From: a bacterium
Lineage (GTDB): Bacteria; Zhuqueibacterota; Zhuqueibacteria; Oceanimicrobiales; Oceanimicrobiaceae
Reading direction: 5' to 3'
Assembly (NCBI GenBank): GCA_046757025.1
Contig: JBHHXN010000107.1
Location: 1-18,277, forward strand
Length of the DNA stretch: 18,277 nt
In this document: one piece after another, positions 820 to 18,256 of the stretch
Position numbering within the stretch: position 1 is the first letter of the stretch
Layout of the letters: the number at the start of each line of letters is the position of its first letter
Program-made: the position numbers and the translations under genes
Notes under the pieces: generated by a model
The model's input: only the letters and a program-made list of their open reading frames with translations
The model's database searches: none
What the model was told of the DNA's origin: nothing

Positions 820-846
820 AAATTTTGTGTTGCCTGCTTAAATAAA

Positions 847-942
847 GGGCACAGAGAGTCTAATCATAAAATCACCAAACTACCTAATTCCTCGATGATG
901 AACGTTTCTGGACATGTTCATACCCATCCTCTCTCTGTGCCC
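847..942. repeat. 12-bp perfect inverted repeat enclosing 72 nt, upstream of the radical SAM gene; possible structured leader or sRNA
   Basis: gggcacagagag (847-858) / ctctctgtgccc (931-942); inner atgaac/gttcat stem; on the minus strand the 3' arm is followed by tttattt. Confidence 0.6.
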
Positions 943-1049
943 AAATTCATAGAAGCGTTTGTTTTTCAATTCTCCTGACGGTTAGCCATAAACTTTTTAT
1001 TTACGTGATCGCAATATCACAACCGCTGTTTCATTGATAGTTCGTCATT

Positions 1050-1130
1050 TGGTGATGGACCGAAATCTTCAGTCTTCGCCCAAAGATTCCACTCGGGGTG
1101 AAGAAAAAAGGCTTTTTCGGTCAATTGCCA
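1050..1130. mobile_element. Degenerate MITE-like palindromic element A
   Basis: Termini tggtgatggaccgaaa (1050-1065) and revcomp of 1115-1130 (tggcaattgaccgaaa) match 13/16; inner stem tcttcgccc/gggtgaaga. Confidence 0.5.
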
Positions 1131-1132
1131 GT

Positions 1133-1289
1133 TAGTGCCTGACCGAAAACTCGAGAAATGATCGATTTAAAACCTCTTCGCGAAGGCGTCCTTTCGACAA
1201 AGCTCAGGGCAGGCCAACCGAGCCAAACAGGAATTCACCCTCGGCCAGGAGGCCTTCGGGAAGAGGTGGTCGTTTTCGGTCAATTACTA
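1133..1289. mobile_element. MITE-like palindromic element B carrying an inserted REP unit
   Basis: Termini tagtgcctgaccgaaaac / tagtaattgaccgaaaac (15/18); inner 21-bp stem 1172-1192 / 1247-1267 with 2 mismatches; REP-like cctttcgacaaagctcagggcagg at 1190-1213. Confidence 0.65.
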
Positions 1290-1505
1290 GTTAAAGAATT
1301 TTAAGGTCGCATTTTGCATTTTTTCCGCTCGTTCTCGGGCGCAATCTAAAATACTCTGATCCGCAAAACTCGAAAGCGGATCAAAATCTCCCTTCACTCT
1401 CAGCCAACATTTCGTGGAAGCTTCCTCGCCTTTTGGACAATCAATATTTAACAAAGGGCAGGTGCCTTCTACAAATTCTTGTTTTTCGACCTCATCGTCA
1501 GCCAT
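1287..1505 (-). CDS. Small hypothetical protein with four Cys (CPx5CP...C...C)
   Basis: 72-aa ORF with gagg RBS, starting 35 nt after the oxidoreductase gene on the same strand. Confidence 0.7.
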   Translation of the reverse strand: MADDEVEKQEFVEGTCPLLNIDCPKGEEASTKCWLRVKGDFDPLSSFADQSILDCARERAEKMQNATLKFFN

Positions 1506-1540
1506 GGCATACGCCTCTTTTTATGAATTTAGAATTGATT

Positions 1541-3019: not shown

Positions 3020-3119
3020 AAACTTTCTCTCAATTAAAGGGTTCTTTTCCGAATTTATTCTTCTGTGTTGTTCGTTTTATATGGATTGTGACTCAATTTC
3101 AAAATTTCATTGCGACCGT

Positions 3120-4187
3120 TTAGTTTGTAGTTTTTTTCAGTTCTTGCATCACGGCCATAAGCTGTTCGTAAAGTTCTTTGGTAGTGGGTACACCGCCGCC
3201 CATGCGCCCATAAAATTTCGTGGGGCGTTTGCCTTCCAGAGCCAATCGGACGTCGTCCACCATTTGGCCATTGCTGAGTTCCGAAACAAAGAACATCTTT
3301 GCGCTTTCGGCCAGCTCCCGAATGCGTTTGGTCGGAAACGGCAGCAAGGTGATGGGTCTGAGCAAACCCACCAGCACTCCGTCGGCCCGGGCATCTTCCA
3401 CCACCGATTGCAGCATACGCGAGATGATGCCATATCCTATTACGATGATTTCGGCGTCTTCGGTGTATAACTCTTCGAAACGCACTTCCCTTTCCGCAAT
3501 GACAGCGTATTTTTTTTGCAACATTTCATTATGCGCTTCCAGCTCAACCGGATCCATGTAAATGGATGTGATGAGATTTTCGGCGCCGCGGTCGGTGGCG
3601 TCCACCGCCCAGGGTTTATCGGGGAATTCGGTTACCGGTTCTGGCAGCTCCACCGGCTCCATCATCTGACCCACAAATCCATCCGCCAGGATGGCGGTGG
3701 GCGTGCGGTATTTATCAGCGAGATCGAAGGCCAGCATCGTCAAATCACACATTTCCTGTGCACAATTGGGCGCCAGCACGATGAGTTTGTAATTGCCGTG
3801 CCCTCCGCCTTTGACGATTTGATTATAGTCGCTTTGTTCCGGGGCGATGTTTCCCAAACCCGGTCCACCGCGCATAACATCCACCAGCACCAGCGGCAGC
3901 TCAGCGCCGGCGGCGTAGGACAAGCCCTCCTGTTTCAAGCTGATGCCAGGACTCGAAGAGGCTGTCATCACACGTTTGCCCGCGGAGGCGGCCCCGTATA
4001 CCATGTTGATGGCGGCCACTTCGCTCTCAGCCTGCAAAAATGTTCGATTGACCTGCGGAAAATACAGAGCGGCTGATTCGGCAATTTCACTGGCCGGGGT
4101 GATCGGATACCCGTAAAAAGCCCGGCAGCCGGCTAGAATCGCACCTTTAATAACGGCTTCGTTTCCTTTGACCAAAATTCGTGACAT
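3120..4187 (-). CDS. vorB: 2-oxoacid (2-ketoisovalerate-type):ferredoxin oxidoreductase alpha-type subunit VorB
   Basis: [43 protein letters not shown] and GGGHG motifs; aggag RBS. Confidence 0.92.
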
Positions 4188-4208
4188 ACTTTCACTCCTA
4201 CCTGATAT

Positions 4209-4469
4209 TTAATGGGATTTCTCACGTTTATAAACTCGAATGGCTCCGGGCTCCGGACAAATATAAAAACAAATGCCACAAGCGGTACACTTTTCACCGA
4301 TATAGATGGCGGGATGATATCCCATCTTGTTTAAGCTTTCCGATTCCTTCAACACTTGCGGTGGGCAGGCTTCGATGCAAAGCAAACAGCCTTTGCAAAG
4401 GTCCGAGGTAATCTCCACCCGGCCTCGTTCGTCGATTTTCGTTTTCTTGCTCATTATGCTTTGTTCCAT
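4209..4469 (-). CDS. vorC: 2x[4Fe-4S] ferredoxin, delta subunit of the oxidoreductase (VorC-type); start at 4469 or 4454 rather than 4565
   Basis: CKGCLLCIEACP and CTACGICFYICP motifs; directly upstream of vorB; ggag precedes the ATG at 4469. Confidence 0.85.
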   Translation of the reverse strand: MEQSIMSKKTKIDERGRVEITSDLCKGCLLCIEACPPQVLKESESLNKMGYHPAIYIGEKCTACGICFYICPEPGAIRVYKREKSH

Positions 4470-4781
4470 ATAAAATTCTGCTCCGATAGTAAAACTGGTT
4501 AAATGTGGCAGCACCACAGCTCTATTTCGTTGGTTTAAATTCGCAAAAGTTTTCAGTTTGATCATGATTCTGTTTCCCGGTTAAAAAAGCCGGCTTTGAG
4601 TTTTTTCGACGGGTTAAACAGAACTCTATTCCACAACAATTAACTCAACCACTGAAAACTCCCTGGTCGCATATCAGATTCTTTTCTAAATGCTCGCAAA
4701 AACGGCTGATAAAATTTTATTAAAATGCGGCTTTTGGTAATTTGATAGAATTTTTGTATTTACCTAATTATTTTGCAAATC

Positions 4782-5180
4782 CTAATTGCCGACTTGGACA
4801 TCCTGACTACTTTCAAAAGCTCTATCGACGTAGTTCAAAATTTCTTCACGCTTGACCGGTTTATTTAGAAATGCAAAAGCGCCGGCCTTTTGCACTTGCA
4901 AAATGATTTCTTTTTCATCTTCCACCGTGACGATGATCACCTTGGTTGCCGGCGAGCACGATTTAATTTCTTCCAGCAACTTCAAGCCGGATTTCCCCGG
5001 CATATACACATCCAGCAAAATCAACGGATAGAATTTATGTATAAACAGCTCTTCCGCCTGAAAGGCGTCCGAAGCAGCCCACACGTGATAACCGGCTTTT
5101 TGTAATATTTTGGTTAATGAACGCCGAAATTCGACATCGTCGTCAACGATGAGTATGTCCGGATATTCAGGAATGGCCAA
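4782..5180 (-). CDS. Single-domain response regulator (receiver only)
   Basis: IVDDD, LLDVYMPG (phospho-acceptor Asp), conserved Thr and NKP; no output domain; TTG start with ggaga RBS. Confidence 0.9.
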   Translation of the reverse strand: MAIPEYPDILIVDDDVEFRRSLTKILQKAGYHVWAASDAFQAEELFIHKFYPLILLDVYMPGKSGLKLLEEIKSCSPATKVIIVTVEDEKEIILQVQKAGAFAFLNKPVKREEILNYVDRAFESSQDVQVGN

Positions 5181-5233
5181 TAGAATTCTCCACCAGATAA
5201 AAACACACGACCACTAAAATTAAATGAAATCTA

Positions 5234-5249
5234 TGAAAAAACTATGCCA
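5234..5249 (-). promoter_or_regulatory. Candidate sigma54 -24/-12 promoter for the receiver gene
   Basis: Minus strand TGGCAT-AGTTT-TTTCA versus consensus TGGCAC-N5-TTGCW; the -12 box is TTTC instead of TTGC. Confidence 0.55.
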
Positions 5250-5359
5250 TTCTTTTGAAAGAAAGAAAATAGCCGTTAGCATCTTCACAAACGGCAATTT
5301 ATCAATGGGTTATATTCTCATATTTTCGGAGGGGAAACGCTTCAAAAAGCGTCGGGCTA

Positions 5360-5409
5360 TTCTTATAATTGATAAAACGTGTTCTATTCATTCTCATTTT
5401 TGAGAATGA
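5360..5409. promoter_or_regulatory. Candidate tandem upstream activating sequences (enhancer) for the sigma54 activator
   Basis: Perfect tcattctca-N4-tgagaatga (5388-5409) and degenerate ttctta-N4-tgataa (5360-5375); centres 31 bp apart. Confidence 0.55.
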
Positions 5410-5410
5410 T

Positions 5411-6766
5411 TTAATCATCCAACTGGATGCCTAATTCCGTTATTTTTCGATACAAAGAAGACAAGCTCAAGCCCAGTATTTTTGCGGCTTTGCTTTTGTC
5501 AAAATCCGCCAATTGCAGCGCCCGCATGATAGCGTCCTGTTCAAATTTTCGAACCGAGGCCTTGAGATCGTCGTTATTTTGTGATAGTTGGCTCTTTGAA
5601 TAAATGTGCGGGAAGTGTTCGATTCTTAAAATATTATCATCACACAAAATCATAGCGCGTTCAATGGCATTTTCCAGCTCCCGCACGTTGCCCTTCCATT
5701 CATACTCATTGAACGACGCCAGTACCTTGTTATCCACACCTTTAATTTGCTTGCCTAATTGAACATTATACAGATTTAAGAAGTAATCAATAAGCTCGGG
5801 GATATCTTCTTTGCGCTCTTTCAGGGGCGGGATGTTGATTCCGATGACGTTCAGTCGATAATAAAGGTCTTCGCGAAAATTCCCCTGTTCCACTTCGGTG
5901 GCCAGGTTTCTATTGGTTGCCGCGATGATTCTCACATCCACTATTTCCGGATTGGTACTGCCGACGGGTAAAATTTCTTTTTGTTCGATGGCACGCAACA
6001 GCTTGACCTGCAGCGTAAAGGGGACGCTGGAGATTTCATCTAAAAAAATCGTACCGCCTTCGGCCACTTTGAACAGGCCGCTTTTGTCGCGCATGGCGCC
6101 GGTAAATGCGCCTCTCATGTGCCCAAAAAGCTCACTTTCGATGAGGTTTTCCGGAATGGCTGCACAATTGATGGGCACAAATCTCTTTTTCGCTCGCAGG
6201 CTCTTGTGGTGAATGGAGCGAGCAATCAACTCCTTGCCGGTGCCGCTGGCGCCGGTGATCAAAACCGTGGCTACCAGGGGTGCGACTCTATCGACCATTG
6301 CCATGACGTCCTTCAATGCCCGACTGCTGCCAATGATGTCGTTCACAACCGGTTCTTTCCCCAACTGGGCTTTCAAAAATTTGTTTTCCTGCGCCAGATT
6401 TTGCCGTTCGATGGCGCGTTCAACCGTGCTCAGAATCACCGCTTTTTTGAACGGTTTGGTAATAAAATCGTAGGCGCCTTCTTTCATGGCTTCCACGGCT
6501 GTTTCGATGGTGCCGTAACCTGTCAACAGCACCACCTCGATTTTCGAATGGTGTCTTTTGATATTTTTGAGTAACTCGAGGCCATCTCCGTTCGGCATCT
6601 TCAAATCGGACAACACGATATCAAAATTATTTTCCGCAAGTCGTTCGATGGCCTCGTTGCCCGAACCGGCCGTTTCAGTGGTATAACCGGCGTTCTTCAG
6701 AGCCTTTTCCAAAGACTGGCGAACGCTGATCTCATCGTCCACAATTAAAATGTGTTTTGATTCCAA
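5411..6766 (-). CDS. Sigma54-dependent response regulator (NtrC/AtoC/ZraR family; REC-AAA+-HTH)
   Basis: Receiver (LSDLKMP), Walker A GASGTGKE, ESELFGH and GAFTGA, Walker B IFLDEI, FREDLYYRL, WKGNVRELEN, and a C-terminal Fis-type HTH. Confidence 0.95.
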   Translation of the reverse strand: MESKHILIVDDEISVRQSLEKALKNAGYTTETAGSGNEAIERLAENNFDIVLSDLKMPNGDGLELLKNIKRHHSKIEVVLLTGYGTIETAVEAMKEGAYDFITKPFKKAVILSTVERAIERQNLAQENKFLKAQLGKEPVVNDIIGSSRALKDVMAMVDRVAPLVATVLITGASGTGKELIARSIHHKSLRAKKRFVPINCAAIPENLIESELFGHMRGAFTGAMRDKSGLFKVAEGGTIFLDEISSVPFTLQVKLLRAIEQKEILPVGSTNPEIVDVRIIAATNRNLATEVEQGNFREDLYYRLNVIGINIPPLKERKEDIPELIDYFLNLYNVQLGKQIKGVDNKVLASFNEYEWKGNVRELENAIERAMILCDDNILRIEHFPHIYSKSQLSQNNDDLKASVRKFEQDAIMRALQLADFDKSKAAKILGLSLSSLYRKITELGIQLDD

Positions 6767-6767
6767 G

Positions 6768-9032
6768 TTAAATACCCTGATTTTTGTTGTTCAAAGGCAG
6801 TTCAATTGAAAAAGTCGTACCTTTACCCAATTCGGATTTGCAGGTGATCTGTCCGCCGTGCTCGTTGATTACCTGCTGTGTGATGGCTAATCCGAGTCCG
6901 GTACCAAAGTCCTTCGTAGTAAAAAACGGATCGTATATTTTATCGATCATATCCGGTGGAATGCCCATACCGCTGTCCTGAATATCGATAACCGCTCGCT
7001 GATCCATTTTATGCACACGGATATGTAATTTACCCCCTTTGGGCATGGCATCAATGGCGTTGCGAACAATATTTAAAATGACCCGGCGAATTTGTACTCG
7101 GTCAAATCGAATATCCAACTCGCCATGTTGAAATTTAAAATCAAAGGTGATCTGCTTTTGATTGAACTCAGGCTGTAAAATATCGATCATGCTTTTGATA
7201 TCCTCTTCCAGGTTGCCTCTCACCGGTCGGGATTCCGGCAACCGAGAAAATTGCAAATATTCCTCGGTTAAAGCCGTCACTCTTTCCACTTCTGAGATGA
7301 TGGATTCCAACAAAACCTGGCCTTCACGGGTATTGACGGATTCATAACTGTTCAGCTCGTCCTCGAGCAGCTCGGCATTCAAACTGATGGACGAGAGCGG
7401 GTTGCGGATTTCATGCGCTACCTTGGCCGCCATCTGCCCGATGATGGCCAGGCGCTCCGTTTGCAATATTTTCTTCTGAAGCTGCACCTGTTCGGTCATA
7501 TCGCGCAAAATTCCGTTGAACATTTTGCGCTCGCCGATGTACACTTCACTCACAGCCAGATATAGTGGAAACACCGTGCCGTCTTTGCGCTGACCCACAA
7601 TTTCCCGCCCGATACCGATGATCTTTTTTTCGCCGCTCTGCAGATATTTTGAAAGATAATTTTGATGTTCGTTTCGGTACGGTTCCGGCATGAGCAAATG
7701 AATGTTTTTGCCGATCACTTCTTCGGCTTTATATTGGAATAACCTTTCCGCTGCGGAGTTAAAAGACTGAATGTTGCCTTCCTCATCGATGGTGATGATG
7801 CCGTCCACCGCGGTTTCCACGATGGCGCGAATGCGGGCTTCGCTTTCCTGCAAGGCTTCCTGAGCCAGTTTGCGCTCGGTTAAATCGAGCATGGTACCCA
7901 CCAATTTAACCACTTTTCCTCGCTCATCGCACACGGGCTCTCCAATGCTTTGAACAAATCGAATATCGCCATTGGGCCGAACGATGCTGTGCTCTACGTT
8001 GAATGGGACGGCTTTTTTAATGGCGTTGTTCACTTCGTGTTTCACCCGCTGCCGGTCATCGTCGTGAATGTGCCGCATAAACTCTTCCAGGGAAGGCTCG
8101 CCTTTTGTCGGATCGAGACCCATGATTTTAAAGGTTTCTTCCGACCAGTGGATATCTTCAGCGGATTGAGTGGGAATGTTCATTTCGTAGCTGCCGAGGT
8201 GTACCAGCTCCTGAGCTTTTTTGAGATTGGCTTCGCTGCGCACCAGGGCGTCTTCCATGCGCTTGCGTTCGGTGTCGTCCTGTCCGGAGCTGATGGTGCC
8301 GATGACCTTGCCCGAGGCATCCTGCAGAATGGAATTGTGCCAGGTTATGATGCGCTCCTCGCCGTTTTTGGTCAACAGCGGATTTTCAAATCGATAAGGC
8401 CAATTTCTTTGTTTGATGGAGTGAAAAGTCTCCTGGACTTTCGCCTTCCAACGCTCGGGTATAAACAGGTCGAACCAGTTTTTCCCCAGCACTTCTTGTT
8501 TGGTGTAACCTGTAACTTCTTCACATTTTTTGTTGAAAATGATGATTACACCCTGGGTATTGAGTCCCACAAAAAGATTGTTGGCGGTTTCAATGAGGGA
8601 CTCTGAAAACTCCTTTTCTTGTCGGAGCTGGTTTTCGATTTTTTTCTTTTCGGTGATTTCCGACTGAATGCCCATATAGCCGATTTTTTCACCGTTTAAA
8701 TAAACCGGTGTGATGGTAAGAAAATTGGGAATTTCGTTGCCGTCCTTACGCTGGTTGATTATTTCACCTTTCCACACGCCGTTGGTGGTAATGGCTTGCC
8801 ACATCTCTTGATACAATTCGTCTGAGGACTGAGCGGAGCGCAGAATGTTGGTGTTTTTACCGATGGCCTCTTTGCGGGTCCAGCCGAACATGTGGGTGAA
8901 CGCGTGATTGATCTCGACGATATTTCCTTGGAGATCGGTGATCAAAATGGCGTCGGTGGAATGTAAAAAAGCGTTGTAGATCAGCTCAAATCGGTGTTCA
9001 AGACGGGAAAGGTTTTTCTTTTTTAACGGCAT
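6768..9032 (-). CDS. Soluble sensor histidine kinase with four PAS/PAC domains
   Basis: Four PAS-PAC repeats, H-box AHEIRNPL, N-box NAIDAM, DSGMGI, PFFTTK, GTGLGL; no transmembrane segment; stop 1 nt before the regulator start. Confidence 0.95.
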   Translation of the reverse strand: MPLKKKNLSRLEHRFELIYNAFLHSTDAILITDLQGNIVEINHAFTHMFGWTRKEAIGKNTNILRSAQSSDELYQEMWQAITTNGVWKGEIINQRKDGNEIPNFLTITPVYLNGEKIGYMGIQSEITEKKKIENQLRQEKEFSESLIETANNLFVGLNTQGVIIIFNKKCEEVTGYTKQEVLGKNWFDLFIPERWKAKVQETFHSIKQRNWPYRFENPLLTKNGEERIITWHNSILQDASGKVIGTISSGQDDTERKRMEDALVRSEANLKKAQELVHLGSYEMNIPTQSAEDIHWSEETFKIMGLDPTKGEPSLEEFMRHIHDDDRQRVKHEVNNAIKKAVPFNVEHSIVRPNGDIRFVQSIGEPVCDERGKVVKLVGTMLDLTERKLAQEALQESEARIRAIVETAVDGIITIDEEGNIQSFNSAAERLFQYKAEEVIGKNIHLLMPEPYRNEHQNYLSKYLQSGEKKIIGIGREIVGQRKDGTVFPLYLAVSEVYIGERKMFNGILRDMTEQVQLQKKILQTERLAIIGQMAAKVAHEIRNPLSSISLNAELLEDELNSYESVNTREGQVLLESIISEVERVTALTEEYLQFSRLPESRPVRGNLEEDIKSMIDILQPEFNQKQITFDFKFQHGELDIRFDRVQIRRVILNIVRNAIDAMPKGGKLHIRVHKMDQRAVIDIQDSGMGIPPDMIDKIYDPFFTTKDFGTGLGLAITQQVINEHGGQITCKSELGKGTTFSIELPLNNKNQGI

Positions 9033-9070
9033 ATTTTTTTAATGATTCAAAATTTGGTAAAATCGACCAC

Positions 9071-10420
9071 TCATGAGCCCGTATTTGCCTTCGTTGCTAA
9101 TTCCTCAGCGGCCTCGTTTTCTTCCTGCGCCATGCCATTTTCTTTCTTTACATTTGGCGGAAGAGTAAAATCCACCAGGTAGTGAAACTGACGTCGAAAT
9201 TCATCTAATGAAATGCCGGCGGTGGCTGCGAATTTCGCCAGCTCGTGCGGATCATCGAAATCGTCCGGCGACAGCCGGATCATGTAACGCCGGGCAATAT
9301 GAAAACTTTCCGATTTGACATTCACCATGCGCACCCGGGTTCGGCCGGTCTTTTTATCGAGGATGTCTTTAAAATACAGCGGCACGAACCGCCCCTCCTG
9401 AATGGACACCATTGCCGCATTCCCTCCCTGCAGAATGAACTTAGCCGCACAGAAGCCCAAATCACGGGTATATTCCATGTCAAAGGGAATGGGATCGGCG
9501 CAGCGCAGCTCGTAACCGATATTCTTTGCCACGATGGTGGTTTTGATTCCGAATTCGGCCAAGCGTTTTTGCACCAGCGCTTTTAAAATTTCACCGAAAT
9601 TGATCTCGGCGATGCGGATATTGTCATGAGCGTCACGCTCCACAGAGCCCAGCGATTTAATTTCATCGGGAGAGAGTTTTTCCACCAACCCTTCGGCTAA
9701 AACCGCTACCCCGTCGGCGCGGCCGTAGCTCAGGCGTTTGATGGCAGCGCCCACTAAAATGTCCACTAACCTTTTTAAGGTTAATGGATTTTCATCGTGA
9801 AACTCTTCCGGAATAATGGTTAATGTGGCGCCAGCCGCTTTGCCGATACCCAGAGCCAGGTGTCCGGCCTTTCGACCCATGGTGACGACATAGTACCAGC
9901 GCGAAGTGGTGTGACCATCCACCATGAGATTTTTGATGATCTCCACGCCAAAGTGGCGGGCGGTCTGAAAGCCAAAAGTGCTGATGCCATGGGGTAAATC
10001 GAGGTCATTATCGATGGTTTTGGGCACGTGCACCACTTTAATGCGGCCGTCGGCCATCTCTTCCAATTTGAGCGCCGAATAGGCGGTGTCATCGCCGCCG
10101 ATGGTGATGAGCTTGTCGATGTTCAAACGCAGCAAAGACGTGACCGTAACTTCCAGATGCTTTTTGTTTTTGGTGGGATTAGCGCGCGAAATGCCGATGT
10201 AGGAGCCGCCGCGAAAATGGATGCGGCTCACATCTTTGATGGTCATTTTTTTGGTGTGCGCAATATCTCCGCGCATGAGCCATTTGAAACCGTCCAGAAT
10301 GCCCACCACTTCGGTCCCGGTGATGATGCTGCGAATGGTGGCCGCCCCGATAACGCTGTTGATGCCCGGCGCCGGACCGCCGCCAACTAAAATCCCCAAT
10401 TTTTTCGGCTGCATGGTCAT
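9071..10420 (-). CDS. pfp: Pyrophosphate-dependent phosphofructokinase (diphosphate--fructose-6-phosphate 1-phosphotransferase)
   Basis: GGGPAPGIN, GGDD (Asp marks PPi use), PKTIDND, MGR and GYELRC motifs. Confidence 0.92.
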   Translation of the reverse strand: MTMQPKKLGILVGGGPAPGINSVIGAATIRSIITGTEVVGILDGFKWLMRGDIAHTKKMTIKDVSRIHFRGGSYIGISRANPTKNKKHLEVTVTSLLRLNIDKLITIGGDDTAYSALKLEEMADGRIKVVHVPKTIDNDLDLPHGISTFGFQTARHFGVEIIKNLMVDGHTTSRWYYVVTMGRKAGHLALGIGKAAGATLTIIPEEFHDENPLTLKRLVDILVGAAIKRLSYGRADGVAVLAEGLVEKLSPDEIKSLGSVERDAHDNIRIAEINFGEILKALVQKRLAEFGIKTTIVAKNIGYELRCADPIPFDMEYTRDLGFCAAKFILQGGNAAMVSIQEGRFVPLYFKDILDKKTGRTRVRMVNVKSESFHIARRYMIRLSPDDFDDPHELAKFAATAGISLDEFRRQFHYLVDFTLPPNVKKENGMAQEENEAAEELATKANTGS

Positions 10421-10540
10421 ACGAAATCCTTCTTTATTCCCACATTCCTAACAGGTACCGCTTTCATAAATTAAAATAAAAATTAACCAAATGCCGGATT
10501 TGAGTGGTAATTAAAAATATGGTTATATATTCACTAAAAA

Positions 10541-10582
10541 AGTTCAAATTTTCTTGAACTATTAAATTATATTTTGTATAAT
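10541..10582 (+). promoter_or_regulatory. Candidate sigma70 promoter of pckA with a palindrome overlapping the -35 box
   Basis: TTGAAC (10554-10559)-N17-TATAAT (10577-10582); agttcaa-N6-ttgaact inverted repeat at 10541-10560. A second candidate is TTGACT-N16-TAAATT at 10619-10646. Confidence 0.5.
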
Positions 10583-10774
10583 TTACTGAAATTATTTTTA
10601 CAAAGCAAGCAGATTAACTTGACTCTTTAGCTGAATTATCTAAATTTGAATTCACAAATTAAATAAAGCGGCACGTACATCCGATAAGCTTTTGAACCGG
10701 GAAGCAAAACGAATTCGAGACAGCTTTTCATCGCGATCAATTCACTAAATATAAATTTAAAGAGAGAGAGTATT

Positions 10775-12361
10775 ATGGATACCAAAGAGGCTCAACTTAC
10801 GTCAGTTGGTTTAACAAATCTGAAAAAGTTGAATTGGAATCTTTCGCCCGCAGTCTTGGTGGAACACGCCTTGAAACGCGGCGAAGGAGTCATGGCGCAA
10901 AACGGTGCGCTCATTGTTCGGACTGGCAGTCGAACCGGGCGATCGCCGGCGGACCGTTTTATCGTGGATGAGCCTGGCAGTCGAGATACTATTGCTTGGG
11001 GTAAAGTCAATATGCCTATGTCTGAAGAAACGTTTGATGTTCTCTTTAAAAAAGTCACGGCCTACTTGCAAAATAAAGAGCTGTTTATCCAGGACATGTT
11101 TGTGGGTCAAAATCCCAATTACCGTATGCCGCTGAGGGTGGTTTCGGAATTTGCCTGGGGCGCTTTGTTTGCCAGAACGCTTTTTGTTCGGCCGCAAAGC
11201 GACGAAGAGCTGGCCAGCCACCAGCCTGAATTCACCGTGCTGCACGCCCCTCTGCTCACAGCCAATCCGGAGCTGGACAACACCAACAGCGAAGTCTTCG
11301 TGGTCATCCATTTAGCGAAAAAGCTGGTTCTGGTCGGTGGGACTCATTACGGCGGCGAAATCAAAAAATCGATTTTTTCGGTGATGAACTACCGATTGCC
11401 GGGCAAAGGCGTCTTTCCCATGCACTGCTCGGCCAATGTCGGCTCGGACCAGGATTGTGCCTTGTTTTTTGGCCTCTCCGGCACCGGCAAAACCAGCCTG
11501 TCTGCCGATCCCGACCGCAAGCTCATCGGCGACGACGAGCACGGCTGGGGCGACGACGGCGTATTCAATTTTGAAGGCGGATGTTACGCCAAATGCATCA
11601 AACTGACTCTGGAAAAAGAGCCACAGATTTACAATGCCATTCGATTCGGCTCCATCGCAGAAAACGTCATTTATGACGAAAATACCCGAGTCATCGATTA
11701 CGACGCCGCGGATATCACCGAAAACACCCGCGCCACCTATCCCATCGAACACATCGATAACGCGCTGATTCTCGGACTCGGAAATCATCCACAAAACATC
11801 ATGTTTTTAACCGCGGACGCTTTTGGGGTGCTGCCGCCAATTTCGAAACTCACACCGGAGATGGCCATGTACCATTTTCTTTCCGGCTACACTTCAAAAT
11901 TAGCCGGCACCGAGGCCGGCATCACCGAACCGCAGAGCGCGTTCAGCGAATGTTTTGGCTCGCCGTTTCTACCGCTGCCTGCCACCCGCTATGCTGAAAT
12001 GCTCGGCGAAAAAATGCGCAATCACAATGCCAATGTCTGGCTTGTAAACACCGGCTGGACTGGCGGCCCGTATGGCGTGGGTAAACGCATGGATATCATC
12101 TACACCCGGGCCATGGTCAAAGCCGCCCTGTCTGGCGCTTTGCGGGAAGTGGAATTCACACCGCACGAAATTTTTAAAGTGCTGGTGCCAACCAGTTGTC
12201 CCAATGTGCCTACAGAAGTGCTGAATCCGCGCAACACCTGGAGCGATAAAGACGAATACGAACGCAAAGCTAAAGAATTGGCAAAACGGTTTCAAGAAAA
12301 CTTCAAAAAATTTACCGATGCCTCCGAAGCAGTGAAAGCCGCGGGCCCGGTGGCGGATTAA
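10775..12361 (+). CDS. pckA: Phosphoenolpyruvate carboxykinase (ATP)
   Basis: [50 protein letters not shown] and DAFGVLPP motifs. Confidence 0.97.
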
Positions 12362-12416
12362 TGTCTTATTTATGATGTCATCTTTTTGAGGGGGCTGTCC
12401 AAAAAGTCATTTTTCT

Positions 12417-12440
12417 TCACCCTGAGCGAAGTCGAAGGGT
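12417..12440. repeat. REP-like unit tcaccctgagcgaagtcgaagggt; degenerate inverted partner at 12706-12739
   Basis: tcaccctgag pairs with ctcagcgtga (12730-12739); same family as the unit at 1190-1209 (16/20 identical on the opposite strand). Confidence 0.65.
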
Positions 12441-12441
12441 G

Positions 12442-12662
12442 TACGGCTATCCAGTTTGCTCAGAAACGGGGTTATTACTGAATTCAGTATTTAAAAGAAT
12501 GCTATAGTCAGTCATTCCCGCGAAAGCGGGAATCCATTTAGAAACAAAGATTTGAGGCGGTCGAAACCTCTGGATGCCCGCCTTCGCGGGCATGACGATT
12601 AAGGTTTATATCAATCGAAAAGAGCTTTTATAAGTTCAAGCTGAGTTAACTGGATAGCCGTA
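12442..12662. mobile_element. Inner 221-bp MITE with 15-bp perfect TIRs and a 9-bp target-site duplication
   Basis: tacggctatccagtt (12442-12456) / aactggatagccgta (12648-12662), flanked by cgaagggtg at 12433-12441 and 12663-12671. Confidence 0.8.
12511..12596. repeat. Inverted REP doublet (REPIN-like) of the dRS3-like ATTCCC-N8-GGGAAT type
   Basis: gtcattcccgcgaaagcgggaatcca (12511-12536) and tggatgcccgccttcgcgggcatgac (12571-12596); 23/26 complementary. Confidence 0.8.
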
Positions 12663-12850
12663 CGAAGGGTGTCGAAGGGTGTTGTAAGTTGATTAAAAAC
12701 AAACATGCTTTCCCGAATTTACTTCGGGACTCAGCGTGAGGGTGTATTCTTTTCGCGACTTTTTGGGCAGCCCCCTTTTTATTTAAAAAATCATCCATCG
12801 CAGCCGGATGAATAAAACTTTTTGACATTTTTGCGTTGCATTTTATCCGT

Positions 12851-12879
12851 TTGACTCTTAGTTTCGGAACAGATACAAT
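12851..12879 (+). promoter_or_regulatory. Candidate sigma70 promoter of the glycine oxidase gene
   Basis: TTGACT-N17-TACAAT ending 22 nt before the ATG at 12902. Confidence 0.55.
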
Positions 12880-12901
12880 TTTGTCAGGATACAGAAAAAA
12901 C

Positions 12902-14020
12902 ATGAAACCTACCAGTGACGTCATCATCATCGGCGCCGGCCTCATCGGCTGTGCCATCGCCCACCGGCTGGCCAGCAGCGGACTGCAGGTAACCGTGGTT
13001 GAAAAGGGCCAGCCCGGCGAAGAAGCTTCCAGAGCCGCGGCCGGCATGCTGGCACCGCAAGCCGAAGACGCCCACGGTCTGCAAAACGATATGAACGAAT
13101 TTTGCTTCGCCAGTCATGCCCTCTACCCGGAGTTTGTGGAACAAATTGCAGAAGAATCCGGCCTGCACGTTGGCTACCAGACCAGCGGCAGTATTTACGC
13201 CGCCAGCGATTACACCGAAGCGAAAATGTTAGCCGGGTTGTTCGAGCGCCAAATCAGAGCCCATAAAAAAGCTGAAGAGCTCACTCCAACGCAATTGAAA
13301 ACAGTGGAGCCGGCTCTGGCCGATTCTGCTGAGACCGCGGTGTTTTTGCCGGATGATCATTTTGTCAACAATCGCCAGCTCTTGACGGCGCTGGTGACCG
13401 CCGCTAGCCGAAAAAAGGTTAAATTCCTCTCCAACACGCCGGTGCTGGCGCTGGAGATACAAAAAGATAAAGTGGACGGTGTGCATATACCCGGCGGAAT
13501 CCTCCGGGGGCATAAGATAATCATCGCCGCCGGTTCCTGGTCGGGCTTGATCGATTGCCGGGAACGAATCGTTCTGCCGGTGCGGCCCATTCGCGGTCAA
13601 ATCGTTTGCCTGCAAGTCAAACCCCAGCCGCTGCGACATCTCATCCATTCTTCCGGCTGCTATCTCGTTCCCTGGCCCGACGGACGCATCCTGGTCGGAA
13701 GCACCGTGGAAAACGTCGGCTACAACAAACAGGTCAGTGCCGAGGGTGTGCAGCAGCTTCTGCATTCGGCTTTAAAAATCATCCCGGCTCTGGCTTCCGC
13801 AACCGTTGCCGATATGTGGGCCGGCCTGCGCCCAGACACGCCCGACAATCTGCCCATCCTGGGCGAGACTGCTCTGGACAATCTTCTCGTGGCCAGCGGT
13901 CATTTTCGCAACGGCATTCTGTTGGCTCCGCTGACCGCGAAATTGATCGCGGAGCTAATCGTTTCTGGCAAAACATCTCTTTCATTGCAACCGTTTCGCG
14001 CTGACCGCTTTGATGATTAG
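12902..14020 (+). CDS. thiO: Glycine oxidase ThiO-like FAD-dependent oxidoreductase (DAO family); start is the ATG at 12902
   Basis: DVIIIGAGLIG FAD motif, ASRAAAGML, PVRPIRGQ, YLVP, WAGLRP and GHFRNGILLAP. Confidence 0.85.
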   Translation: MKPTSDVIIIGAGLIGCAIAHRLASSGLQVTVVEKGQPGEEASRAAAGMLAPQAEDAHGLQNDMNEFCFASHALYPEFVEQIAEESGLHVGYQTSGSIYAASDYTEAKMLAGLFERQIRAHKKAEELTPTQLKTVEPALADSAETAVFLPDDHFVNNRQLLTALVTAASRKKVKFLSNTPVLALEIQKDKVDGVHIPGGILRGHKIIIAAGSWSGLIDCRERIVLPVRPIRGQIVCLQVKPQPLRHLIHSSGCYLVPWPDGRILVGSTVENVGYNKQVSAEGVQQLLHSALKIIPALASATVADMWAGLRPDTPDNLPILGETALDNLLVASGHFRNGILLAPLTAKLIAELIVSGKTSLSLQPFRADRFDD

Positions 14021-14112: not shown

Positions 14113-14388
14113 TTATTTTGGCTCAGAACCTTTCTCGTTGGAGTTGGACGAATAGGTCTGTTTCTTGTGCTGGCGGTACACGTAAGTTGAAATCACCGCT
14201 ACAATTCCGAATGGCAAAAGCGACAAAAACACCGCGCTGAGATAGTAAGTGTGCAAGACTTTTTTGGAAGCCGCTGAAAAACACACCGGACAGCTCCAAC
14301 CGGCTGCCGGTAAAAAGAAAAGTAAGCAGGCAAAAAGGCCTGCCATTAAAAATGGTTTTAGTCCTTTCATGGCAATGAACTCGCTCAT
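14113..14388 (-). CDS. Small membrane protein with signal-like N-terminus, CPVC motif and C-terminal TM helix; last gene of the oxidase operon
   Basis: Starts 4 nt after the subunit III stop; two hydrophobic segments flank WSCPVCF. Confidence 0.75.
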   Translation of the reverse strand: MSEFIAMKGLKPFLMAGLFACLLFFLPAAGWSCPVCFSAASKKVLHTYYLSAVFLSLLPFGIVAVISTYVYRQHKKQTYSSNSNEKGSEPK

Positions 14389-14392
14389 AAAA

Positions 14393-15031
14393 TCAATTTA
14401 AATAAACCAACAAATAAAGCACCGGCCAAATTCCCACCACAAAATACCAGTACATGCTACATAGCGTAACGCCGGTGTACGCTGAAGCCGTGTATTTTCG
14501 CTTCATGGAATTTCGGAAAACAAACAACAAACAGACTACTGCGCCCAGCACATGTAAACCATGACACCCGATAAGAGCATAAAAAGTCCCTCCGTACACG
14601 CTGGAGGAAAACGTCAATCCGTACCGCACCAGGCTGAACCATTCCGTGCCCTGAAAAACCAGAAACACACTCCCTAAAATAGCCGTCATGCCCAGCCACC
14701 GCACCAGGGATTTTGTGTTTCCCGTTTTAATGCTTTTCGTGGCTCTGAACATAGTAAGACCGCTGATGAGCAGAAGCAGCGTGTTGAGCCCGGTCACGGC
14801 CACTGGTAAAAGCGGTTGCTGCGGCGGCGGCCAGGCTTCGCTGGAAGCCCGCAGAATCATAAAAGTGCTGATGAGCCCGCCAAAGAACATGACCTCTGTG
14901 CTCAAAAAGAGCAGCATTCCCAGAATCGCTTTGTTGAATGGAGCCGCAGGGGCCGGCGGTGAGCCGCCGCCGGCAGGGTTGTTGCCTGCCGCGCCGTTTT
15001 TTATAACAGAGGATTTAGCTATCGTACTCAT
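14393..15031 (-). CDS. ctaE: Heme-copper oxidase subunit III (short form, second copy)
   Basis: GMLLFLSTEVMFF, LNTLLLLISG, FLVFQGTEW, GCHGLHV and YWYFV..IW motifs. Confidence 0.88.
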   Translation of the reverse strand: MSTIAKSSVIKNGAAGNNPAGGGSPPAPAAPFNKAILGMLLFLSTEVMFFGGLISTFMILRASSEAWPPPQQPLLPVAVTGLNTLLLLISGLTMFRATKSIKTGNTKSLVRWLGMTAILGSVFLVFQGTEWFSLVRYGLTFSSSVYGGTFYALIGCHGLHVLGAVVCLLFVFRNSMKRKYTASAYTGVTLCSMYWYFVVGIWPVLYLLVYLN

Positions 15032-15048
15032 CCATCATCCTTTTTACC

Positions 15049-15474
15049 TTATTCAATCGTACCCACAGTCTTTTTGATATTTTTGGCAATGCGGGTACCA
15101 ACGGTGAGCGCGATCAAATTCGTTGGTAATTGATACAACCAGATGCCAGTTATGTTCCCTGCCGAAGTCAAGTAGCCTTGCGTCATAAAATGCAAAGGGA
15201 TAAAAATTATCGGAATCCAGACAAAAGCTAATAAATACACTGAGACGATTTCTTGATTTGTTTCCAAATTTACCCGGCCGACGGGCAACTGAAAAGCCAG
15301 GACACACCAGAGCACATAGCCTGCAATATTCAAAATGGCGGCTACCGGGGCCTGGAAAGCGATCTGGTTTGCTGGTTTGATCACATAATAAAATCCATAC
15401 CCAACTAAAATAGAAAAGATGTTTAACACGGCCATAAAAAAGCCATACAAAATCATTCGGATACTGTTTTTCAT
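15049..15474 (-). CDS. Hypothetical integral membrane protein (about four TM helices)
   Basis: 141-aa hydrophobic ORF filling the gap between subunit IV and subunit III on the same strand. Confidence 0.7.
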   Translation of the reverse strand: MKNSIRMILYGFFMAVLNIFSILVGYGFYYVIKPANQIAFQAPVAAILNIAGYVLWCVLAFQLPVGRVNLETNQEIVSVYLLAFVWIPIIFIPLHFMTQGYLTSAGNITGIWLYQLPTNLIALTVGTRIAKNIKKTVGTIE

Positions 15475-15894: not shown

Positions 15895-16488
15895 TCAATA
15901 CGACAGATAAAGCAACGGGAACAAAAATATCCAGATGATGTCCACAAAGTGCCAGTAGAGTCCGGCGTACTCAACCCGCTGCTGGGTTTTTGGCCAGAGC
16001 GTACCACGCACGGCCATGACATACAGCGCCAGGTTAAAAATAATTCCTGCCAGAACATGCAGTCCGTGCAGGCCGGTCATGGCATAGTAAAATGACCAGA
16101 AAATGCCGGTCACCGGGGTAAAGCCATTTGAGATTTCAATGGAATATTCAATTCCCTTTACGACTAAAAAAGCAACTCCCAAAAGAACGGTGACCAACAG
16201 CAAATTTTGGGCTTTTTTTCTTTGTTCTTTGTCGATGGCTTCAAACGCTTTCACGATGGTCAGGCTGCTGGTCAACAGCACTACCGTATTGAAAGTACCG
16301 ATAGGGGCGCTGACATGATGCGCCATTTCCGACCAGGCCCCCGCGGCGGCCATTCGGAATAAAACATAGGTTGCAATGAAACCTCCGAAAACCATAATTT
16401 CAGAAGCCAAAAACCACCAGATTCCCATTTTACCCGGAACCGTGGGGGATTTGGGATAATCTTCCGCTGCAGAAATGCTGCTCATCAT
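15895..16488 (-). CDS. ctaE: Heme-copper oxidase subunit III (short form, first copy)
   Basis: GIWWFLASEIMVF, NTVVLLTSS, TGLHGLHV and GLYWHFVDIIW motifs; aaggag RBS. Confidence 0.92.
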   Translation of the reverse strand: MMSSISAAEDYPKSPTVPGKMGIWWFLASEIMVFGGFIATYVLFRMAAAGAWSEMAHHVSAPIGTFNTVVLLTSSLTIVKAFEAIDKEQRKKAQNLLLVTVLLGVAFLVVKGIEYSIEISNGFTPVTGIFWSFYYAMTGLHGLHVLAGIIFNLALYVMAVRGTLWPKTQQRVEYAGLYWHFVDIIWIFLFPLLYLSY

Positions 16489-16522: not shown

Positions 16523-18256
16523 TCAAGCGGCCGCGACCGGCTCTTTTTCTTGATCCTGCGGCTGCCAATCCGCTTTGTTTTCGGGCAAGCTGTAGTCGTA
16601 CGGACCGTGATAAACGGTGGGTACGGTGGCAAAGTTTCCGTGCGGCGGCGGTGAGGGCGCCGACCATTCCAGAGTGTTCGCCTGCCAGGGATTGTTCTCG
16701 GCTTTCCTGCCTTTGAACATACTCCAGAAGAAATTGATGACAAATGGAATTTGCCCGACCAAAAGCAATATGGCACAAATCGTAATAAATTCATTGATCC
16801 CTTGTAAGGGCTTGAGAAAATCATATTGCAGAGGGTTATAAATTCTGCGCACATGACCGGCCATTCCCAGTACAAACATCGGGATGAACACCAGATTAAA
16901 AAACACCAGAGTCCACCAGAAATGAATTTTACCCAGAACTTCGTTCATCATGCGTCCGAACATTTTGGGGAACCAGAAATAAAGCCCGGCAAATCCGCCT
17001 AAAAGAGCGGCCGGAAACAACGTGTAGTGAAAATGCGCGATGACAAAATAAGTGTCGTGAATATAGATGTCCACCGGTGCCGAGCCGTTAAAAATGCCGG
17101 TCACGCCGCCAATGATAAAGGTGGTGATGGTTCCCAGCGCAAAGAGCATGGGCGTGGGGAAACGCAGCGATCCTCCCCAAAGCGTGGCCATAAACGCAAA
17201 TATAATGATGGCAAACGGCACCGAGATCAAAATCGTGGTGATGCTGAAAGGCATGACCAGGCGCGGGTCGATGCCGCTCACAAACATGTGATGCGCCCAG
17301 ACGATAAAACTCAACACGCCGGCGACGATGGTTGAATAGATGATGGTGCGGTAGCCAAAAATGGGCTTGCGTGCAAAAGTGGGAAAAATTTCCAGCAATG
17401 CCCCGAGACCGGGCAGCAGAATCACATAAACTTCAGGATGACCAAAAAACCAGAACAGATGCTGCCACAACAGCGGATCGCCGCCGCGGTCCGCGATGAA
17501 AAAGCCGGTGCCCACGGTTCGATCCAGCAGTAGTAAAATGGCGCCGGCAATGAGGGGGCCGACCGACAGCATGAAAAGCACCGCCGCGGTGATCTGCATC
17601 CACACCATAAGCGGCAGCCGAAACATGGTGAGTCCGGGTGCGCGCATGGTGATGGTGGTGGTGAGAAAATTGATACCGCCCATCAAAAAGGACGTAAATT
17701 CCAGGGCCAGCGCCAGAATCCACAGATTGATGCCCCAGTTGACGCCGGTATGAATGGCGTCGGCAGAAAGTGGGGCATAACCTGTCCAGCCCGCGGCAGC
17801 CGCGCCTCCCGGCACCAGGAACGAGGCCATCAAAATCAGAGACGACAGGAACAACGTCCAGAAGGACATCATGTTTAAGCGCGGGAAAGCCATGTCCTGC
17901 GCGCCCACCATCAGGGGCAGCAGAAAATTGCCAAAGGCGCCCAGCAGAAACGGCATGGCCACAAAAAACACCATGATGGTGCCGTGCATGGTCACCAGCG
18001 CGTTGTAAAATTCCGGCGGAATAATGCCGCCAAATGCCGTGGGTTCCGGAATCCAGCCCGCGCCCGGCACCGCGGTTTCAGGCCAGGCAAGCTGCCAGCG
18101 CATCATGTAAGCCAACAATCCGCCGACGATGGCCATAAACAGGCTCAAAAACAAATACTGCTTTCCGATCACTTTGTGATCTACCGAGAAAATGTATTTG
18201 CGCCAAAATCCCAGAGGTTCTGTATGTTCAACTTCCGTGGTTACTTGTTCGGTCAT
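16523..18256 (-). CDS. ctaD: Heme-copper oxidase subunit I, A1-type motif with atypical proton channels; start is probably the ATG at 18256
   Basis: DHKVIG, HGTIMVFF, DMAFPRLN, GWTGYAPL, WFFGHPEVY, VWAHHMF, HDTYFVIAHFHY and RR motifs; ggagg 5 nt before the ATG at 18256. Confidence 0.95.
   Translation of the reverse strand: MTEQVTTEVEHTEPLGFWRKYIFSVDHKVIGKQYLFLSLFMAIVGGLLAYMMRWQLAWPETAVPGAGWIPEPTAFGGIIPPEFYNALVTMHGTIMVFFVAMPFLLGAFGNFLLPLMVGAQDMAFPRLNMMSFWTLFLSSLILMASFLVPGGAAAAGWTGYAPLSADAIHTGVNWGINLWILALALEFTSFLMGGINFLTTTITMRAPGLTMFRLPLMVWMQITAAVLFMLSVGPLIAGAILLLLDRTVGTGFFIADRGGDPLLWQHLFWFFGHPEVYVILLPGLGALLEIFPTFARKPIFGYRTIIYSTIVAGVLSFIVWAHHMFVSGIDPRLVMPFSITTILISVPFAIIIFAFMATLWGGSLRFPTPMLFALGTITTFIIGGVTGIFNGSAPVDIYIHDTYFVIAHFHYTLFPAALLGGFAGLYFWFPKMFGRMMNEVLGKIHFWWTLVFFNLVFIPMFVLGMAGHVRRIYNPLQYDFLKPLQGINEFITICAILLLVGQIPFVINFFWSMFKGRKAENNPWQANTLEWSAPSPPPHGNFATVPTVYHGPYDYSLPENKADWQPQDQEKEPVAAA

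What the first reader, a model, noticed from the sequence alone, without database searches (positions are those of the whole stretch)
16523..18256. A-family heme-copper oxidase that appears to lack the K proton channel
Seen: helix VIII reads FSITTILISVPFAIIIFAFMATLWGG. It aligns without gaps to the canonical FxxATMxIAVPTGIKVFSWIATMWGG, so the conserved Lys (Paracoccus K354; codon 17204-17206) is Ile and Thr351 (17213-17215) is Phe. Ser291 is Leu (17393-17395). All six His ligands, the cross-linked Tyr, Glu278, the HD Mg site and the RR pair are intact and the ORF is unbroken, which argues against decay. Known: Lys mutants of canonical A-type oxidases lose nearly all O2 turnover. Inference: a subfamily with rerouted proton delivery or different chemistry, such as peroxide or NO reduction or altered pumping. 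I cannot tell whether this clade has already been described.
Basis: partly seen in the sequence, partly recalled or inferred. Interest (0 to 1): 0.8.

Follow-up and report, generated by a model that had tools for sequence, protein, structure and literature searches.

The report
Lysine-free oxidase with substitute proton site
This intact cytochrome c oxidase gene lacks the proton-channel lysine thought essential in its family; it belongs to a widespread lineage that carries an invariant new aspartate in its likely partner subunit and likely still reduces oxygen, so it is a natural test of how these enzymes deliver protons.

Summary
Observation confirmed: Paracoccus K354/T351/S291/S357 are Ile/Phe/Leu/Ala, and all metal ligands, Tyr280 and Glu278 are intact. 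The gene is under purifying selection and heads a coxA-C-D-C operon; its CuA subunit II lies on contig C170. It belongs to a well-supported clade (0 of 329 sequences have the Lys) nested among Lys-bearing A1 oxidases, so the loss is derived.

In 10 of 46 Longimicrobiales genomes and one Binatia genome a clade member is the only Tyr-bearing terminal oxidase found, which points to O2 reduction rather than NO or peroxide chemistry.

K-less family-A oxidases are already in print (Acidithiobacillus, Elusimicrobia, Ferrigenium), and this scan reported the same kind on other DNA. I found no biochemistry on this clade. Verdict: new variant of a known kind; proton route untested.

The parts
16523..18256 (-). 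coxA, heme-copper oxidase subunit I (577 aa), A1-type HPEVY. Its likely subunit II (231 aa, CuA motif intact) is outside the window at G000:C170:194-889 (-)
   Evidence: PF00115 471 bits; TIGR02891 617 bits, under the 670.75 cut-off; fold match; CoxB TIGR02866 156 bits over cut-off, 71-77% identical to CoxB of six clade operons
17204..17206 (-). Ile351 in place of K-channel Lys (Pd K354)
   Evidence: Lys in 0 of 329 clade sequences
17213..17215 (-). Phe348 in place of Pd T351
   Evidence: F 73%, I 20% in clade
17393..17395 (-). Leu288 in place of Pd S291
   Evidence: L 48%, A 34% in clade
17195..17197 (-). Ala354 in place of Pd S357
   Evidence: offset
17222..17224 (-). Ser345, new hydroxyl at Ec/Rs A356, a K-cavity corner residue near the catalytic Tyr
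   Evidence: S in 329 of 329 clade, under 1% of 148 Lys-bearing; A356 listed as K-channel lining
17237..17239 (-). Thr340, clade-conserved hydroxyl on helix VIII, predicted to face subunit II helix 2
   Evidence: T 99% in clade, 16% in Lys-bearing; facing is inferred
17699..17701 (-). Glu186, second D-channel carboxylate at Ec/Rs S197
   Evidence: E in 120/120, 120/120, 98% of 328; S197 listed as D-channel lining
17687..17689 (-). Phe190 in place of D-channel Ser/Thr (Ec T201, Rs S201, Pd S193)
   Evidence: F 96% in clade; S or T 94% in Lys-bearing
17894..17896 (-). Asp121, D-channel entry (Ec D135), intact
17426..17440 (-). His273-Pro-Glu275-Val-Tyr277: CuB ligand, D-channel Glu and cross-link Tyr
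   Evidence: 100% in clade
15895..16488 (-). coxC1, short subunit III
   Evidence: PF00510 94.6 bits
15549..15830 (-). coxD, subunit IV
   Evidence: PF03626, TIGR02229 over cut-off
15049..15474 (-). 141-aa hydrophobic ORF inserted between coxD and coxC2; not seen at this place in relatives L101-L106
   Evidence: no Pfam or NCBIfam match; atlas only unnamed clusters
14393..15031 (-). coxC2, second short subunit III (the a-III type doublet)
   Evidence: PF00510 92.1 bits
14113..14388 (-). 91-aa CxxC-plus-helix small protein closing the operon, also in Lys-bearing paralogous operons

Best explanation
The gene encodes subunit I of a CuA-type cytochrome c oxidase that has lost the lysine K channel and likely still reduces O2 to water, with a new subunit II aspartate (Asp78) and Ser345 predicted to take over the lysine's job of holding and handing a proton to the catalytic tyrosine. 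Shown: intact metal ligands, Tyr277 and D-channel core; four K-channel positions hydrophobic; invariant Ser345, Thr340, Glu186 and subunit II Asp78; full operon; ctaA and ctaB in the genome. Inferred: electrons pass cytochrome c to CuA to heme a to heme a3-CuB; oxidative-phase and pumped protons use the D channel, remodelled by Glu186 and Phe190; reductive-phase protons reach Tyr277 through Asp78(II), Thr340/Thr341 and Ser345. Open: whether Asp78 is refilled from the cytoplasm (Glu289, Ser308/Thr309, Ser316, Thr379) or from the periplasm (Asp82). In this genome it is an accessory oxidase beside a canonical A2 enzyme linked to alternative complex III.
For: O2 chemistry: Tyr and three CuB His kept in 329/329, the feature Murali 2024 ties to O2 reduction. 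Sole-oxidase genomes: 10 of 46 Longimicrobiales genomes carry a clade member; 7 have no other PF00115 hit, 3 only a Tyr-less enzyme; none has cytochrome bd; 7 are near single-contig. Binatia G217 has one HCO, of the window's own SVPFA type, and no bd. Precedent: Acidithiobacillus COX with L291/I354/A357 serves O2 reduction. Compensation: mid-helix acid in subunit II helix 2 in 76 of 76 aligned Lys-less bacterial pairs and 0 of 59 Lys-bearing; Asp78 invariant in 47 sequences and equal to Rs G116, 15 residues past E101 on the same helical stripe (stripe is my inference); an independent Lys loss (L064, nested in a starred Lys-bearing clade) also has a Glu there. S/T at 345 in 52 of 54 Lys-less and 0 of 34 Lys-bearing tree rows.
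Against: No activity data and no coordinates: contacts of Asp78 rest on alignment and recalled structures. Two haloarchaeal Lys-less oxidases have no such acid. Independent-pair tests do not reach significance: Ser345 5-6 of 6 pairs, median p 0.06, 3-4 of 4 in the mixture tree; subunit II acid 2 of 3. The 10 sole-oxidase genomes are close kin (79-98% identity) and belong to a subclade with an extra helix VIII Glu350 that the window protein lacks; that they respire O2 is not shown. In the window's phylum all 12 carriers among 113 genomes have another A-family oxidase. K362M blocks oxidase turnover in R. sphaeroides. CoxB and CoxA are on different contigs here.
Confidence: 0.6

Rival explanations
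1. It is an O2 reductase that takes all protons through the remodelled D channel; Glu186 acts as a second proton store near Glu275, and Ser345 and Asp78(II) are only structural.
For: D-channel D121, N110, N128, N196 and E275 are 100% conserved and Glu186 98%; Degli Esposti proposed that K-less enzymes keep the D channel; haloarchaeal K-less enzymes lack the subunit II acid.
Against: Other Lys-less lineages lack Glu186 yet have Ser345, so Glu186 is not the general solution; reviews assign reductive-phase protons to the K path ending at the Tyr; an invariant membrane Asp is costly to keep for packing alone.
Confidence: 0.22
2. It works mainly as a cytochrome c peroxidase (H2O2 to water), cycling through the D-channel-only half of the cycle.
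For: K362M keeps peroxidase activity while losing oxidase activity (PMC7601700 passages); accessory in all 12 carriers of this phylum.
Against: Only Tyr-bearing terminal oxidase in 11 genomes; full four-subunit respiratory operon; compensating residues would not be needed.
Confidence: 0.08
3. It is a nitric oxide reductase.
For: A-family enzymes have weak NO reductase activity; the likely coxB contig also carries Rrf2 regulators and a molybdopterin enzyme.
Against: Tyr kept, no FeB Glu motif; known NOR families lack the Tyr; nirK 0 of 5 over cut-off, nirS only a weak propeller hit, nosZ 1 of 5; three genomes carry a separate Tyr-less NOR-like enzyme beside it.
Confidence: 0.05
4. It is a slow O2 scavenger or sensor whose low turnover, as in a K mutant, is enough for its role.
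For: All four K-channel positions are hydrophobic; accessory in this genome.
Against: Sole terminal oxidase found in other genomes; several invariant new polar residues; strong purifying selection.
Confidence: 0.05

Closest known systems
A1-type aa3 cytochrome c oxidase (P. denitrificans 1AR1, R. sphaeroides 1M56, M. smegmatis 6ADQ)
   Same: Fold (TM about 0.86), six His ligands, HPEVY, D-channel Asp, Asn and Glu, CuA subunit II, subunits III and IV
   Different: K354, T351, S291, S357 and subunit II E78 replaced; D-channel S193 is Phe; new Glu186, Ser345, Thr412 and subunit II Asp78
K-channel-less COX of Acidithiobacillus and relatives (bioRxiv 2020.03.01.968255; PMC8239418 Suppl. Table 3)
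   Same: Leu at 291, Ile at 354, Ala at 357, non-acidic subunit II position 78, D channel kept
   Different: They keep T351 and have two extra N-terminal helices; the two representatives I took for that type by residue pattern (P0146, P0161; identity not confirmed) fall outside this clade
A1 'KC channel' and 'Oligoflexia' subclades of PMC8239418 (Elusimicrobia, bacterium HR19, Methylacidiphilum, Bacteriovorax)
   Same: A1, no Lys, Glu at 292 and Ser on helix VII; HR19 has F351/T354/S357, like deep clade member L162
   Different: Rows matching the Elusimicrobia, Methylacidiphilum and Bacteriovorax patterns form other branches without Glu186; a shared single Lys loss is not rejected (p-AU 0.44); HR19 could not be fetched
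A1 subtype a-III / 'Gemmatimonadetes' oxidases with a COX3 doublet (PMC6431628, PMC8239418)
   Same: Operon plan; nearest Lys-bearing paralogues are 55-61% identical and often in the same genomes
   Different: They keep K, S/T351, S291 and subunit II Glu-x-x-Trp-Thr, and several have ctaA-ctaB in the operon

Membership tests
Heme-copper O2 reductase | Six His ligands and active-site Tyr on helix VI | tested here: met
   H91, H273, H322, H323, H408, H410, Y277
Heme-copper O2 reductase | Reduces O2 to water; His-Tyr cross-link; Cu in the B site | not testable with these tools
   Only indirect genome evidence
Type A1 (Sousa 2011, PMC3084760 Table 2) | D channel Asp124, Asn199, Asn113, Asn131, Tyr35, Ser134, Glu278 | tested here: met
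   D121, N196, N110, N128, Y34, S131, E275 mapped through E. coli CyoB; E. coli to Paracoccus numbering outside 266-381 is recalled
Type A1 (Sousa 2011, PMC3084760 Table 2) | D channel Ser193 | tested here: not met
   F190
Type A1 (Sousa 2011, PMC3084760 Table 2) | K channel Lys354, Thr351, Ser291 (plus Tyr280) | tested here: not met
   I351, F348, L288; only the Tyr is kept. It is A1-derived by tree, not a canonical A1 by fingerprint
Family A by descent | Nested among A1 sequences in a subunit I tree | tested here: met
   Clade SH-aLRT 100 inside a 99-supported A1 group, trait columns removed; 100/100 in the careful tree
Type B | No D channel; Thr, Ser, Tyr at the K positions | tested here: not met
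   D channel present; I, F, L at those positions; ba3 hits only E 1e-9 to 1e-11
Type C (cbb3) | Active-site Tyr on helix VII; cytochrome c subunits | tested here: not met
   Tyr on helix VI, S316 at the helix VII site, CuA partner; the database label 'cbb3-type' on homologues is an automatic name
NOR (cNOR, qNOR, eNOR and kin) | No active-site Tyr; H-x-aromatic-x-E motif in cNOR/qNOR | tested here: not met
   HPEVY
A1 subtype a-III operon | Doublet of COX3 genes | tested here: met
   Two PF00510 genes in the window; definition
A1 'KC channel' subclade (PMC8239418) | Groups with the listed Elusimicrobia, HR19 and Methylacidiphilum proteins | tested here: inconclusive
   Listed accessions not found among hits; residue pattern YLIFA-EGISS is close to those rows

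The most novel reading that the evidence does not exclude
An inverted K channel: the cytoplasmic half is sealed by Leu288, Phe348, Ile351, Ala354 and subunit II Gln63/Ile67, and the reductive-phase chemical protons enter from the periplasm through subunit II Asp82 and Asp78, Thr340/Thr341 and Ser345 to Tyr277. This would be an A-family O2 reductase that gives up part of its charge translocation to run on high-potential donors or against a high proton-motive force.
Probability: 0.2. Interest if true: 0.85.

Novelty: new variant of a known kind. Interest (0 to 1): 0.52.

Why it matters
Why A-type oxidases need a second proton channel is a long-standing question answered so far only with crippled mutants. 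This lineage is a natural working counter-example, spread over KSB1, NC10, Binatia, Acidobacteriota, Gemmatimonadota, Myxococcota, Bdellovibrionota and Verrucomicrobiota names, with one non-MAG record (Puniceicoccaceae bacterium K14, L016). It offers three specific residues to test (subunit II Asp78, Ser345, Glu186), and an H+/e- ratio that may differ from the textbook value used for A-family oxidases in genome-based energy budgets. The interest is capped because Lys-less family-A oxidases are already published and common (33 of 104 representative hits).

Tried and rejected
Pseudogene or frameshift: rejected. Shifted compensating Lys in helix VIII: none in the printed helix VIII segments. Ancestral K-less state: not supported, the clade is nested among Lys-bearing A1 (rooted on A2 rows). 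Heme b-only enzyme: ctaA and ctaB found in 5 of 5 genomes tested, including two whose only HCO hit is a clade member; heme type remains unknown. Link to porin-multiheme (iron-oxidation-like) modules: upstream in 2 of 30 SVPF loci against 7 of 61 Lys-bearing loci, no enrichment. B-type or C-type substitute channel: residues absent (membership table). Placing the clade in the published table through HR19, NC10 OGB912 or Kryptonium accessions: not found. Plasmid searches for a named close homologue: best 50.5%; two searches gave only distant hits and two haloarchaeal K-less operons. AOX search uninformative, no control rang. Expression: no RNA holder listed. Complex prediction for subunits I and II was not available, so Asp78 contacts are untested. 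The careful mixture-model tree did not finish; the quick one is reported. An early note took D26 for the D-channel Asp; corrected to D121. Rows left out: 30 of 88 rows dropped for the mixture tree; one SVPF and one Lys-bearing subunit II with a gap at the Glu column; loci whose subunit I was under about 400 aa or lacked the search motifs; 46 of 150 representatives lacking the motifs.

Full report
Observation. The window is contig C107 of genome G000. The ORF at 16523-18256 (-) is unbroken, 577 aa, and is a PF00115 protein closest to A-family oxidases by sequence and by predicted fold. Residues 263-378 span the same length as Paracoccus 1ar1_A 266-381, and alignment to E. coli CyoB gives the same register. 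Ile351, Phe348, Leu288 and Ala354 therefore stand at K354, T351, S291 and S357. Against eight relatives dN is 0.10-0.18 and dS 1.5 or more.

Operon and genome. Downstream lie coxC1, coxD, an inserted 141-aa ORF, coxC2 and a small CxxC protein. The genome has two CuA subunit II genes by motif. One belongs to a canonical A2 oxidase (YSHPAVY, Lys present) in an alternative complex III cluster on C72. The other, C170:194-889 (-), is 71-77% identical to the CoxB genes that sit directly before coxA in six related operons and ends 193 bases from a contig start made of a roughly 240-bp repeat with 37 hits in the genome, 18 near contig ends. I infer that it is the partner and that the repeat broke the assembly. 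Its helix 2 has Gln63 at Rs E101. No cytochrome bd was found in this 94.8% complete genome; ctaA and ctaB are on C273.

Clade. All 120 best homologues lack the Lys, as do 120 more found from a deeper member. Defined by three helix IV/V positions unrelated to the K channel, the clade holds 329 of 515 aligned sequences and none has the Lys. The set is biased: up to 80 loci were collected with a helix VIII pattern, and near-copies are included. With helix VIII and four trait columns removed, the clade has SH-aLRT 100 and lies inside a 99-supported A1 group (88 rows), sister to Lys-bearing paralogues at 93 under a mixture model (58 rows, quick tree) and 100/100 in a careful tree of 45 rows. The trees need 5 to 7 changes of the Lys. 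One shared loss with the neighbouring Lys-less branch is not rejected (p-AU 0.44). Lys-less family-A sequences are common: 33 of 104 usable representatives.

What replaces the channel. Against 148 Lys-bearing sequences the clade has Ser345 (100% vs under 1%), Thr340 (99 vs 16), Glu186 (98, absent from the top four residues of the other group), Phe190 (96 vs 1), Thr412 (94 vs 4), Ser316 (97 vs 27) and Glu289 (95 vs 39). A simulation paper lists A356 and G327 as K-channel corners and S197 and S201 as D-channel corners (PMC10341450 passages); these are our 345, 316, 186 and 190. In subunit II, Asp78 is present in 58 of 58 aligned SVPF partners and 12 of 12 partners of the Glu350 subclade. An acid 4-17 residues past the entry Glu is found in 76 of 76 Lys-less bacterial pairs and 0 of 59 Lys-bearing ones, at +7, +10 to +12 or +15/16 in different branches. 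Against generality: two haloarchaeal Lys-less operons lack it; independent pairs are 2 of 3 for the acid and 5-6 of 6 for Ser345 (median p 0.06), neither significant; the entry Glu survives in 37%. That positions 63, 67, 70, 74 and 78 form the stripe facing helix VIII and the heme a3 tail is inferred from helical spacing and recalled structures; no coordinates were available to me.

Which reaction. The cross-link Tyr is kept in every member, and Murali et al. tie O2 chemistry to it (PMC11214002 passages). In the window's phylum 12 of 113 genomes carry a match of 76% identity or more (three assigned by identity only) and all 12 have another A-family oxidase; 66 had no match at E 1e-100. Elsewhere the clade stands alone. 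In an even draw of 46 Longimicrobiales genomes, 10 carry a member; seven have no other PF00115 hit, three have one more that lacks the Tyr (eNOR-like, label recalled); none has bd; seven are near single-contig. These are close kin and have the extra Glu350. For the window's own subtype, 8 of 51 Binatia genomes have a match of 65% or more; G217 has it as the only HCO with no bd, G186 has one further unclassified HCO-like gene, and the other six have further A-family oxidases. Five carrier genomes showed no nirK over cut-off, no convincing nirS, and nosZ in one. The peroxidase rival has a real basis, since K362M keeps peroxidase activity (PMC7601700 passages), but fits sole-oxidase genomes poorly.

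Mechanism, committed. A CuA/aa3-type O2 reductase (about 0.82 in total). Most likely (0.6) the Lys's role as a mid-membrane proton store next to the Tyr has moved to subunit II Asp78, linked by Thr340/Thr341 and Ser345, with the D channel re-lined by Glu186 and Phe190. Second (0.22), all protons go through the D channel. Whether Asp78 is fed from the cytoplasm along helices VI, VII and IX (the 'KC-like' residues Glu289, Ser308, Ser316) or from the periplasm via Asp82 (Asp in 56 of 59 SVPF partners, absent in the Glu350 subclade) is open; the latter is the novel case.

What is known. Degli Esposti et al. describe K354 to Ile and E78 loss in Acidithiobacillus COX (bioRxiv 2020.03.01.968255, passages and section 7; its supplements were not seen and may list more K-less proteins) and tabulate K-less A1 and A2 subclades (PMC8239418 passages, supplement files 3 and 5 whole, file 2 parts 2-3). 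A 2026 preprint notes a K-less COX of unclear function in Ferrigenium (passages). The COX3-doublet operon is subtype a-III (PMC6431628 passages). Family definitions are from PMC3084760 (passages); cycle roles from PMC8361435 (passages). Nine paper searches found no study of this clade and no mention of the subunit II Asp, Ser345 or Glu186; the library misses most subscription journals, and I did not see Degli Esposti 2020 (BBA) or Ducluzeau 2008. This scan has reported the same kind on other genomes (e1-9560723, e1-9556895, e1-9713988, e1-6848194, e1-7197025); those are unchecked notes, not support.

Verdict. Real, conserved and derived; a new variant of a known kind with testable compensating residues and indirect evidence for ordinary O2 reduction. 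Interest 0.52.

Noticed in passing
window 14113-14388 (-): Small protein with an N-terminal hydrophobic stretch, a CxxC motif and one more helix closes both Lys-less and Lys-bearing a-III type cox operons (14 of 37 and 27 of 62 loci by a loose motif); no Pfam family, only unnamed atlas clusters. Possibly a copper or thiol assembly factor.
   Followed up: partly
window 15049-15474 (-): 141-aa hydrophobic ORF, about 41% GC, inserted between coxD and coxC2 and not seen there in L101-L106; no family.
   Followed up: partly
L262:1-63 (G000:C170 start): End of a roughly 240-bp, 98-99% identical repeat with 37 hits in the genome, 18 near contig ends; it sits right after coxB. Element type not determined.
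   Followed up: partly
L262:2484-11115: Divergent from coxB: two Rrf2 regulators, an Fe-S flavoprotein, Rieske protein, cytochrome b, an 8-heme cytochrome and a molybdopterin oxidoreductase cut by the contig end.
   Followed up: no
L102:10105-13811 and L106:13765-18345: 14-heme cytochrome, beta-barrel protein and 6-7-heme cytochrome directly upstream of coxB on the same strand in two relatives; the own genome has 26 ORFs with five or more heme motifs, 11 of them on C12.
   Followed up: partly
L106:8721-8975 (-): 84-aa remnant of a Lys-type subunit II (keeps the entry Glu motif) lying downstream of the Lys-less operon.
   Followed up: no
clade alignment, position 401 (window 17054-17056): The Mg-site Asp is Gly in about 15% of clade members, though intact in the window.
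   Followed up: no
L002-L005, L275-L283: Subclade with Glu at position 350 and mostly Glu at 379 (62 of 72), and a Trp/Pro-His motif in subunit II helix 2; a cytochrome c gene lies upstream in 12 of 12 loci.
   Followed up: partly
L129:2579-4012 (-) (G000:C30): 477-aa membrane protein with a weak PF00115 match (21 bits) that lacks the oxidase motifs; perhaps NnrS-like (label recalled).
   Followed up: no
G146, G147, G168, G138, G161, G155, G167, G180, G145, G156, G179: In Longimicrobiales a partial cytochrome bd subunit I match (67-87 bits, mostly the N-terminal 245 positions, in 600-830 aa frames) lies about 6-8 kb from an A1 coxA in eleven genomes.
   Followed up: no
P0155, P0163, P0197, P0217, P0243: Further A-family representatives with Gln or His at the Lys position, some also with Asp or Leu at the D-channel Glu.
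   Followed up: no
window 55-14020: Rest of the window is ordinary: radical SAM protein, 2-oxoacid:ferredoxin oxidoreductase subunits, two-component genes, phosphofructokinase, PEP carboxykinase, FAD-dependent oxidase.
   Followed up: no
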